64,000 nt of DNA from Schmidtea nova (taxonomy: Eukaryota): the NCBI GenBank assembly GCA_044892505.1, contig CM097883.1, positions 37,014,001 to 37,078,000 of the forward strand. The letters run 5' to 3'. The translations under genes and the position numbers were made by a program. Shown here piece by piece: positions 4,015 through 5,995 of this stretch. The number at the start of each line of letters is the position of its first letter. The stretch's first letter is position 1. Below the pieces are notes generated by a model that saw nothing but the letters and a program-made list of their open reading frames with translations, did no database searches and was not told where the DNA came from.

Positions 4015-4287
4015 TGTTGTAGTCAATTGAATTGTTGGTTAATTAAATTGTCATAATATTTATTTAATAAATTATTAAAAATATTCAATTGACTACGACA
4101 ACAATAATAATAATAATAATAATAAAAATAATAATAATAATATTATAACCAAATATAATAATATTATGATATATTATAATATTATGACCAAATATTATAA
4201 CCAAATATTATGACATAATATTATGACATTATTTAAATAATAAATAATCGGCAATTTAATTAATCAACAATTCAATTGACTACGACA
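4015..4287. repeat. Foldback unit with ~38-bp inverted arms and an internal minisatellite
   Basis: 4015-4052 tgttgtagtcaattgaattgttggttaattaaattgtc is the near-perfect reverse complement of 4250-4287; a third copy of ttcaattgactacgaca at 4084-4100; interior (AAT)n and ~14-bp atattatgacca units. Confidence 0.85.
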
Positions 4288-5995
4288 GACTAACAAGGTT
4301 TGATGAACCAGAAACCACACCAATGTATTCAGATTTTTGGCGTGGTTGCTGATTCATCAATTTTATATTTGTTCCCTCGCTTATTATTTTACATAAGTTT
4401 ACAAATAAATATAAATATACTTTAGTTTCCGAATGTCCGTAGTCGGTATTCGGCTTACGGCCATAGGTTAACATGTACTTAGTCTTGCCAAATAGCAGGG
4501 AAAGAAGGATTCCAGGTCGAACCAAAGATCGATCGAAACCATCGGGTAATCCCCCAAGGAGGATCTCATAAGGAGGTGTTCCACTGCCGGCTTGCTTATT
4601 AGAAAGTACTTGTCCAATCACTCGGAGTGTGTAGAGATAATTGTCAGAAAAGGTAATATTTATTTGATAACCAGTTTCTATATAAATCTTAATTGTATCA
4701 CTTTTCTTTATTAATTGATTGAAAGAGACGTTGAAAAATCTGTAAAATTTAAGAATAAGATTTGAAACATAACACCAAGTTTTGGAAATGTCTGTGAAAA
4801 TATCAAACATGCAGTTTACCAAAATTTCACGAATAAAAATAAAAGGAGGTCTCAAAGATTGAATAACCATATAAAAATGATACACACATGGATTTGATAG
4901 TACAGTACATACCCTAAATACATTCATTTTCGGATCTTGATGTGATATCAATTGACAATAAAATCGTAATTTTCTTGAGACTAATAAGTTCATCATATAA
5001 GAACCTTCAAAAGTGCACATTGTAAAAACAATGAATACAAACAATCCGAAAATAATGTCGATGTAATAATATTGGACGATCATGGCCAAAGACATCCAGA
5101 AAGTAGTATTCAACATTAAAACCATACCGGTGAACGGCATTTGGCCTTCCAACTTAAAACATCTACAAGAAGAATCACTTTTAAAAGGTTCGAGCAATTC
5201 CCGGGCACTTAAACTCAAATTGCCATAACTATTCACTGAAACCTGATAACGGGGACCTTTAAAGTCACTCAAGCACATTTTTGGAGTCAAAATAAGCAAG
5301 TGATCCACCAAGAACTCGATCCTTATTTCCCACGGAAGTTGATTAAATATCAAGTTTAAACGGAGAAATGTATTCTGTACCCATATTTCGATCTTTATAA
5401 ATTTCTCTCTTTCAGTAACAAATTCAATGTTATCACTAAGATTGACATAAAAGTAGGGCCCAATAACAACTTTGGCATAGCATTGTTTATTAAAAATATT
5501 TAGTTTTAAAGTTTTAGATAGTTCCATAAATTCCTTCGTTTCTAAGGCAATTATTTCTGTGATTTCAGACAGAATAATCGCTGGCGCGTTAGCGATGTAA
5601 ATCGGTTGATAGCGCTTATTATGTGATTCAACCAATCCGTTGATTTCACATTTATCATTGATGCGGAAATATCCCAACATTGATTCATTGGACTCCGTAG
5701 TGATATATCCATAGGAATTGATAAGAACCTCCAAACGTTTACCGTTAGCAGAAACTTTCAATGGTCTGACATCTTGAAAGTATTTGTAATAAAAGGCATT
5801 TGTTTTACGCTTCATGTTGACAAATTCAACAATATAAGTTGCCGTAGCATTGGCAGATTCAATATTCCTGGCGCTGTCTGTCAGTCTAATATCGGCTTGT
5901 AACACTTTGTATGTAAAGTTCCTGTGGATAAATTCAAAAATATATAATAACTTTATCATTATGAAAATCATTTGATCAATAATTAAGAATTTCAA
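4280..5995 (-). CDS. Intact intronless orphan ORF C (571 codons from TTG; first ATG at 5971), possibly a membrane-anchored protein
   Basis: 571 open codons in AT-rich DNA cannot be chance; hydrophobic N-terminus, several N-x-S/T sites, hydrophobic stretch FWMSLAMIVQYYYIDIIFGLFVFIVFTMCTF, internal repeat GKRLEVLINSYG / GPRYQVSVNSYG. Product not recognised. Confidence 0.8.
   Translation of the reverse strand: MKFLIIDQMIFIMIKLLYIFEFIHRNFTYKVLQADIRLTDSARNIESANATATYIVEFVNMKRKTNAFYYKYFQDVRPLKVSANGKRLEVLINSYGYITTESNESMLGYFRINDKCEINGLVESHNKRYQPIYIANAPAIILSEITEIIALETKEFMELSKTLKLNIFNKQCYAKVVIGPYFYVNLSDNIEFVTEREKFIKIEIWVQNTFLRLNLIFNQLPWEIRIEFLVDHLLILTPKMCLSDFKGPRYQVSVNSYGNLSLSARELLEPFKSDSSCRCFKLEGQMPFTGMVLMLNTTFWMSLAMIVQYYYIDIIFGLFVFIVFTMCTFEGSYMMNLLVSRKLRFYCQLISHQDPKMNVFRVCTVLSNPCVYHFYMVIQSLRPPFIFIREILVNCMFDIFTDISKTWCYVSNLILKFYRFFNVSFNQLIKKSDTIKIYIETGYQINITFSDNYLYTLRVIGQVLSNKQAGSGTPPYEILLGGLPDGFDRSLVRPGILLSLLFGKTKYMLTYGRKPNTDYGHSETKVYLYLFVNLCKIISEGTNIKLMNQQPRQKSEYIGVVSGSSNLVSLS

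What the first reader, a model, noticed from the sequence alone, without database searches (positions are those of the whole stretch)
4280..5995. Intact 571-codon orphan ORF downstream of an LTR-like unit
Seen: the longest open frame in the window, intronless and undamaged among pseudogenes, starting about 75-100 bp past the ctcaaca end of family X copy 1 on the same strand. It has a possible signal peptide, N-glycosylation sequons, a central hydrophobic segment and a ~33-aa internal repeat (GKRLEVLINSYGYITTESNESMLGYFRINDKC / GPRYQVSVNSYGNLSLSARELLEPFKSDSSC). Weak impression only: residues ~55-240 recall an ADAM/reprolysin prodomain and the start of a catalytic domain, but there is no HExxH. 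Inference: either the first internal ORF (env-like or accessory) of the giant element, with copy 1 as its 5' LTR although no TGG PBS is visible, or a host or viral gene whose upstream region was invaded by the LTR.
Basis: partly seen in the sequence, partly recalled or inferred. Interest (0 to 1): 0.75.

Follow-up and report, generated by a model that had tools for sequence, protein, structure and literature searches.

The report
Repeat-borne ADAM10-like gene lacking active site
This long gene is not an orphan or a viral coat gene but a copy of an ADAM10-type cell-surface protease that has lost its cutting site and occurs in many variants inside a repeated, transposon-like unit, which hints that a mobile element has picked up a signalling protease.

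Summary
The frame is real but lies on the minus strand (ATG 5971 to stop 4280, 563 aa; 571 counts from a TTG). It is not an orphan. Residues 19-263 are 63% identical and 266-327 48% identical to an 810-aa reprolysin (P0002) whose best solved relative is ADAM10. The 304 residues between (zinc motif, Met-turn, disintegrin, most of the Cys-rich domain) are missing in frame. After the membrane helix the frame continues into a 236-aa tail with no known relative, and it stops inside a repeat. Four public runs (one study) hold 433-555 contigs on this 2.3 kb, in all identity classes, with in-frame deletion variants and a link to the upstream X unit, so the ORF is multi-copy and linked to X. X is not shown to be a 5' LTR: two decayed element ORFs lie upstream of it. 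Listed substitutions are close to neutral (12 of 39 silent). Best reading: a protease-dead, rearranged copy of ADAM10-derived cargo in an amplified LTR-like element. Open possibilities: the intact relatives are element-borne sheddases, or this form is a membrane-tethered decoy.

The parts
4280..5971 (-). ORF C, 563 aa (P0001): deleted, chimeric ADAM10-like protein; second in-frame ATG at 5959
5492..5971 (-). Residues 1-160: weak signal-peptide-like start and prodomain-position region (beta-rich in a low-confidence model)
   Evidence: 65-67% identical to P0002/P0005 here; homology to the ADAM10 prodomain not significant (hhalign 0.4%), so assigned by position
5183..5491 (-). Residues 161-263: N-terminal half of the M12B catalytic domain
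   Evidence: hhalign of family against ADAM10 alignment, probability 100%, E 6e-53; this part alone E 1.7e-4
5176..5183 (-). Junction 1: in-frame loss of P0002 residues 248-551 (zinc motif, Met-turn, disintegrin, most of the Cys-rich domain)
4991..5176 (-). Residues 266-327: end of Cys-rich domain, stalk and transmembrane helix (~298-321)
   Evidence: 48% identical to P0002 552-613; P0002 aligns with the ADAM10 stalk/TM of 8esv; hydropathy
4991..5000 (-). Junction 2: family homology ends; in other copies the tail is preceded by different sequence
   Evidence: loose ends behind 5000 in 3 of 4 runs
4424..4990 (-). Tail, residues 328-516, no relative found; contains segments of 285 nt (4573-4857) and 57 nt (~4422-4484) that other copies lack in frame
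   Evidence: P(open by chance) 2e-6; joints and loose ends
4290..4421 (.). Repeat with a strong hairpin (4300-4360), also at 52423-52534; the last ~47 codons run through it
   Evidence: z -7.9 on the minus strand
4015..4287 (.). MITE-like inverted-repeat element; its arm supplies the stop codon
6069..6373 (-). X unit, downstream part: conserved core 6303-6371 and three 45-nt tandem copies 6082-6220; ends in ctcaaca
6374..9780 (+). hAT transposon inserted into X; terminal inverted repeats, 8-bp target duplication matching at 7 of 8; transposase in three pieces
9789..9897 (-). X unit, upstream part; purine-rich run then TGTGAG at 9855; assembly gap follows (9898-10037)
10091..10579 (-). Decayed ORF b, homologous to 38808-39293 (+)
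   Evidence: tblastx E 8e-21
11379..11459 (-). Remnant of ORF a, weakly homologous to ~38170-38250 (+)
   Evidence: tblastx E 0.03; weak
36900..39645 (+). Second element copy: promoter-like LTR-type end followed by a TGG primer-site-like motif (~37380), ORF a, ORF b, X core (39569-39636); no ADAM ORF follows
   Evidence: LTR and primer-site reading by eye

Best explanation
ORF C is a protease-dead, rearranged copy of an ADAM10 (Kuzbanian)-derived gene that is part of an amplified repeat unit, most likely cargo of an LTR-like mobile element in an AT-rich animal genome. Shown: ADAM10-type ancestry; in-frame loss of the catalytic core, disintegrin and most of the Cys-rich domain; a foreign tail; many sequence variants; linkage to X. 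Inferred: (1) an ADAM10 mRNA was captured without introns and diverged fast into the family P0001-P0005; (2) a deletion and a second joint, probably by template switching or microhomology repair, gave the present frame; (3) this form was amplified with X; (4) it now drifts close to neutrally, and the frame is open mainly because the joints were in frame and the copies are young. If translated, it would be a type I membrane protein with a prodomain and half a catalytic domain that probably misfolds and cannot cut.
For: Homology and deletion. The family is one very long-branched clade beside 47 other ADAM10-like proteins (quick tree). Multi-copy: 435, 555, 476 and 433 contigs laid on 2301 nt, all four identity classes filled (X1: 109/121/138/67), all 30 bins covered. 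Linkage to X: pieces 6027-6187, 6027-6140 and 6028-6153 with 0 differences, one listed in each of the 4 runs. Element context: ORF b then X core in two places of the window. Deletion variants at short direct repeats (4555-4572 against 4842-4857). Near-neutral change: 12 of 39 listed ORF substitutions are silent against 21-26% expected, p 0.09-0.30. Five of 38 residues invariant in the four intact relatives are lost, among them a Cys. The stop codon lies in a repeat.
Against: No gag, pol or LTR pair was found in the window (only a selection of ORFs was scanned), so the vehicle is not identified. The second element copy has X but no ADAM ORF. An assembly gap separates ORF b from X. The runs are one study of unrecorded kind, and contig depth is no copy number. 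Frame conservation is stronger than drift predicts: 0 of 12 listed indel rows fall in the ORF (4 rows hidden) and both variant deletions are multiples of three. Only 40 of 162 substitution rows were shown, the best supported, so the silent fraction may be biased. The DNA context of P0002-P0005 is unknown.
Confidence: 0.55

Rival explanations
1. Host multigene family: a fast-evolving, intronless ADAM10-like family expanded by ordinary duplication, and this is a decaying member that happens to lie among transposon debris, X being part of its upstream region.
For: Four intact relatives at 34-81% identity to each other keep HEIGH plus the third His, so the family is old and constrained; no replication genes in the window; the second X copy lacks the ORF.
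Against: The X core follows the same decayed ORF b in two places, so X belongs to an element; hundreds of contig variants with element-like deletions; no introns, whereas animal ADAM10 genes are multi-exon (recalled).
Confidence: 0.22
2. Selected decoy: the deleted form is kept as a membrane-tethered prodomain plus stalk that binds and blocks ADAM10-type sheddases (host Kuzbanian or the intact paralogues) or their tetraspanin partners, damping Notch or ligand shedding.
For: Both joints and both variant deletions keep the frame; 0 of 12 listed indel rows are in the ORF. The parts kept are the prodomain-position region and the membrane anchor. 33 of 38 family-invariant residues are kept. Isolated ADAM prodomains inhibit their enzymes (PMC5159831, passages), and protease-dead ADAM10 acts as a dominant negative (PMC3880303, passages).
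Against: Silent fraction close to neutral; two in-frame joints have a chance of 1 in 9, and the ORF was picked for its length; indels are expected to be commoner in the AT-rich upstream region; half a catalytic domain is unlikely to fold (inference); the C-terminus is supplied by repeats; the prodomain assignment is positional only.
Confidence: 0.15
3. Assembly artefact: a collapsed or mis-joined scaffold fused pieces of a full-length gene.
For: The window has 8 gaps; no listed contig bridges 5176-5183 with 31 letters on both sides (32 of 1903 pieces shown).
Against: The bin 5124-5200 is covered in all 4 runs; a variant at 5167 lies up to 31 letters from a contig end, which spans the joint; none of the 24 listed loose ends (of 306) lies there.
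Confidence: 0.05
4. One reading: an env-like first internal ORF behind a 5' LTR (X copy 1).
For: Type I membrane layout with sequons; multi-copy and linked to X.
Against: The ectodomain is ADAM10-derived; element ORFs lie upstream of X; no LTR partner and no TGG primer site after X.
Confidence: 0.03

Closest known systems
ADAM10 / Kuzbanian (M12B reprolysin sheddases)
   Different: The window's protein lacks the zinc motif, Met-turn, disintegrin and most of the Cys-rich domain; no RxKR site; foreign tail; intronless and multi-copy; the family is only 23-34% identical to ADAM10s
Burro giant Gypsy-like LTR elements of planarians (PMC6431247, section 7 read)
   Same: Mobile element in an AT-rich animal genome carrying host-derived regulatory domains (MATH, BIR, BCL2, ankyrin, SUMO-like) and accessory ORFs
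   Different: That section lists no ADAM or metalloprotease ('metalloprotease' occurs 0 times in the paper); no gag-pol seen in the window; the host of the window is not established
Transposon-captured gene fragments and non-autonomous deletion derivatives (Pack-MULE, LARD/TRIM type; recalled)
   Same: In-frame chimeras of captured coding pieces, internal deletions at short repeats, amplification without enzymes of their own
   Different: Here intact, apparently active members of the cargo family exist; the termini of the vehicle are not defined
Non-proteolytic ADAMs (ADAM22 group, one search hits) and engineered dominant-negative ADAM10
   Same: Membrane-anchored ADAM without protease activity
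   Different: Those keep the folded domain and the disintegrin/Cys-rich part; here they are deleted

Membership tests
ADAM10-type M12B protease | Homology of the catalytic domain | tested here: met
   N-terminal half only, residues 161-263
ADAM10-type M12B protease | Zinc motif HExxHxxxxxH and Met-turn | tested here: not met
   Absent from P0001; zinc motif present in P0002-P0005
ADAM10-type M12B protease | Disintegrin and Cys-rich domains | tested here: not met
   Deleted except the last two Cys; not in any frame of the window
ADAM10-type M12B protease | Stalk and single transmembrane helix | tested here: met
ADAM10-type M12B protease | Prodomain | tested here: inconclusive
   Right position and beta-rich; hhalign 0.4%; ADAM17 zymogen rank 4 at E 0.39 on a pLDDT 36 model
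ADAM10-type M12B protease | Signal peptide | not testable with these tools
   Hydropathy only
Retroelement Env | Homology to a fusion glycoprotein | tested here: not met
   Residues 19-327 are accounted for by the ADAM family
LTR (X as 5' LTR) | Partner copy of LTR length | tested here: not met
   Only a 69-nt core at 71% recurs in the window; the rest of the genome is not held
LTR (X as 5' LTR) | TGG primer-binding site after the CA end; coding region downstream only | tested here: not met
   TTGT follows ctcaaca; ORFs a and b lie upstream
LTR (X as 3' LTR) | TG..CA ends and an upstream purine tract | tested here: inconclusive
   TGTGAG at 9855 after a purine-rich run with one C, and CA at 6069 (by eye); a strict purine-run scan did not list it
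Burro-like giant Gypsy element | Gag-pol polyprotein with accessory domains | tested here: inconclusive
   No such Pfam hit among the window ORFs scanned; the element may be truncated
Burro-like giant Gypsy element | Paired long LTRs, over 30 kb, planarian host | not testable with these tools
   No genome held; organism coded

The most novel reading that the evidence does not exclude
A family of large LTR-like elements in this animal carries its own ADAM10-derived sheddase (the intact relatives P0002-P0005 keep the zinc motif), and ORF C is an amplified derivative of that cargo, possibly kept as a membrane-tethered inhibitor. The element would then carry a tool to cut or shield cell-surface signals such as Notch. 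I found no report of an ADAM carried by a transposon in the listings.
Probability: 0.3. Interest if true: 0.8.

Novelty: new variant of a known kind. Interest (0 to 1): 0.5.

Why it matters
Mobile elements are known to capture host domains, mostly for apoptosis and ubiquitin control in the Burro case. A captured ADAM10-type sheddase would be a new class of cargo that acts at the cell surface, on Notch and growth-factor shedding. It is directly testable in a long-read assembly. If ORF C is only a dead derivative, it still points to an unnamed, very divergent ADAM10-like family (four intact proteins, no names in the collection) and explains why the ORF looked like an orphan.

Tried and rejected
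Pfam and PHROGs on P0001: nothing at cut-off. PDB sequence search with P0001: one hit at E 0.3. ESM Atlas, whole protein and tail: no usable hit. AlphaFold2 models of P0001 and P0004 had pLDDT 36 and 35, so the fold searches on the P0001 model are uninformative (the latter only generic helices). Complex of residues 15-150 with the catalytic domain of P0002: no answer, alignments not used. DNA context of relatives: viral contigs none; metagenomes none and one bacterial-looking Cys-repeat false hit, L001. No RNA holder listed. Relatives of ORF b among longer proteins: none of 707 candidates. Exact look-ups of 7 window proteins: none in the collection. Tail against the tails of P0002, P0004, P0005: 129, 489 and 174 of 500 shuffles as good, rejected; an RRM-like or ionotropic-receptor-like look of the tail, recalled by eye, got no Pfam support. 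A 10-nt match between a loose end and 9862-9872 is within chance; a second loose-end motif is not in the window. Rfam: nothing at gathering score; no tRNA. Relative-rate test: P0001 faster in 1 of 4 comparisons only. The tree is the quick one, with long-branch warnings, and P0001 was left out. Earlier findings: none. The original Burro paper is not held; its text and supplements may already list this ORF.

Full report
Observation. The frame lies on the minus strand. It is 598 codons from stop to stop (6076-4283), the longest in the window; 30 shuffles gave at most 169. The first ATG (5971) gives 563 aa, and the ATG at 5959 matches the start of a relative. The sequons and the hydrophobic segment are present. 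The internal repeat is marginal (16 of 1000 shuffles) and absent from four relatives.

What the protein is. Searches of 5.8 billion and 1.84 billion proteins found one and three relatives. A profile of three of them added a fourth, then 47 more distant proteins that are ADAM10/Kuzbanian where named. P0002 carries Pfam reprolysin domains, and its best solved match is ADAM10 from the zinc motif to the membrane helix. P0001 19-263 matches P0002 3-247 at 63%, and 266-327 matches 552-613 at 48%. The 304 residues between are in no frame of the window; they hold the zinc motif, Met-turn, disintegrin and most of the Cys-rich domain. Profile comparison with 20 ADAM10-like proteins gives probability 100% from residue 161 on. 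The first 150 residues are prodomain by position only. The four intact relatives form one long-branched clade (quick tree). After residue 327 the protein leaves the family: the tail matches none of three family tails and nothing else searched, yet 328-516 is unlikely to be open by chance (2e-6). The last 47 codons run through a hairpin repeat that recurs at 52423-52534, and the stop lies in the arm of a MITE-like element.

Copies elsewhere. Four runs of one study hold 41-44% of the sampled words. Laid at 82% likeness, 433-555 contigs per run cover all 30 bins, in all identity classes. Contig depth is no copy number and the kind of run is not recorded, but this many variants, down to under 90% identity and over non-coding parts too, point to a repeat family (inference). 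One listed piece in each run crosses from the ORF's upstream region into X with no difference. Loose ends at 4572 and 4855 imply copies lacking 285 nt between short direct repeats, and a joint with loose ends implies copies lacking 57 nt; both keep the frame. Loose ends behind 5000 in three runs show the tail attached to other upstream sequence, which read by hand is open in the tail's frame for ten codons; so the tail probably comes from a second coding unit. At the deletion joint no listed piece meets the 31-letter rule, but the bin is covered, a variant at 5167 lies up to 31 letters from a contig end, and none of the 24 listed loose ends (of 306) is there.

Selection. Of 40 listed substitutions (of 162), 39 fall in the ORF. 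Taken singly, 12 are silent, 26 change the residue, and one apparent stop is half of a double change to Tyr. Neutral expectation is 21-26% silent, p 0.09-0.30. Of 12 listed indel rows (of 16), none is in the ORF, though the upstream DNA is more indel-prone. P0001 keeps 33 of 38 residues invariant in the intact relatives. So the residues look close to neutral while the frame looks conserved; the data do not settle this.

Context. X is split by a hAT transposon (6374-9780, target duplication 7 of 8). Its 69-nt core recurs once, at 39569-39636. In both places it follows the same decayed ORF b (E 8e-21) and, weakly, ORF a. The second copy begins with a promoter-like LTR-type end and a TGG motif near 37380 (by eye) and has no ADAM ORF. 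X is thus an internal or 3' part of an element, not a 5' LTR. A gap lies between ORF b and X in the first copy. No gag or pol was seen among the ORFs scanned.

Mechanism. Most likely (0.55): an ADAM10 mRNA captured by an LTR-like element, fast divergence, an in-frame deletion and a second joint, amplification of the dead form, and drift. Rivals are a host gene family among transposon debris (0.22), a selected decoy (0.15), mis-assembly (0.05) and an env-like ORF (0.03). The decoy idea rests on frame conservation and on published inhibition by ADAM prodomains and dead ADAM10 (PMC5159831 and PMC3880303, passages only).

Comparison and novelty. It descends from ADAM10 but fails membership as a protease. 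The closest known vehicle is the planarian Burro group, whose listed cargo includes no ADAM (PMC6431247, passages and section 7). Passages of PMC11410931 and PMC8532177 add none. The host of the window is not established. Searches (listings and abstract starts) showed no transposon-borne ADAM; the original Burro paper and its supplements were not available and may bear on this. Verdict: new variant of a known kind, interest 0.5; 0.8 if the intact sheddases prove to be element cargo.

Noticed in passing
window 6303-6371 (-) and 39569-39636 (+): The X core is a conserved ~70-nt motif. On the ORF strand both copies fold into two similar hairpins, the second with different but paired letters, although neither z-score is strong (0.27, -1.77) and RNAalifold gives another fold. 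No Rfam match; possibly a cis-acting RNA of the element.
   Followed up: partly
window 6374-9780: Near-complete hAT transposon, transposase in three pieces, with a long internal palindrome at 6515-6840.
   Followed up: partly
window 52734-55461: MULE element with FLYWCH-MULE transposase (450-aa ORF) and inverted ends made of 15-nt tandem units.
   Followed up: no
window 20141-20539 (-) and 57281-58349 (+), 59297-59569 (+): Remnants that look by eye like Penelope-type GIY-YIG endonuclease and RT tails; no Pfam hit at E 0.01.
   Followed up: no
window 12470-12900 (-): CCAAT, TATA and AATAAA motifs with a GC-rich end in CA, laid out like 36900-37380 but not similar in sequence; possibly the 5' end of the first element copy.
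   Followed up: partly
window 24986-25393, 30811-31140, 43951-44226: BED-finger, mariner-type and piggyBac/IS4-type transposase remnants.
   Followed up: no
P0002 ~674-810 and P0005 ~720-987: The C-terminal parts of these two records are unrelated to each other beyond their shared region and may be gene-model artefacts.
   Followed up: no
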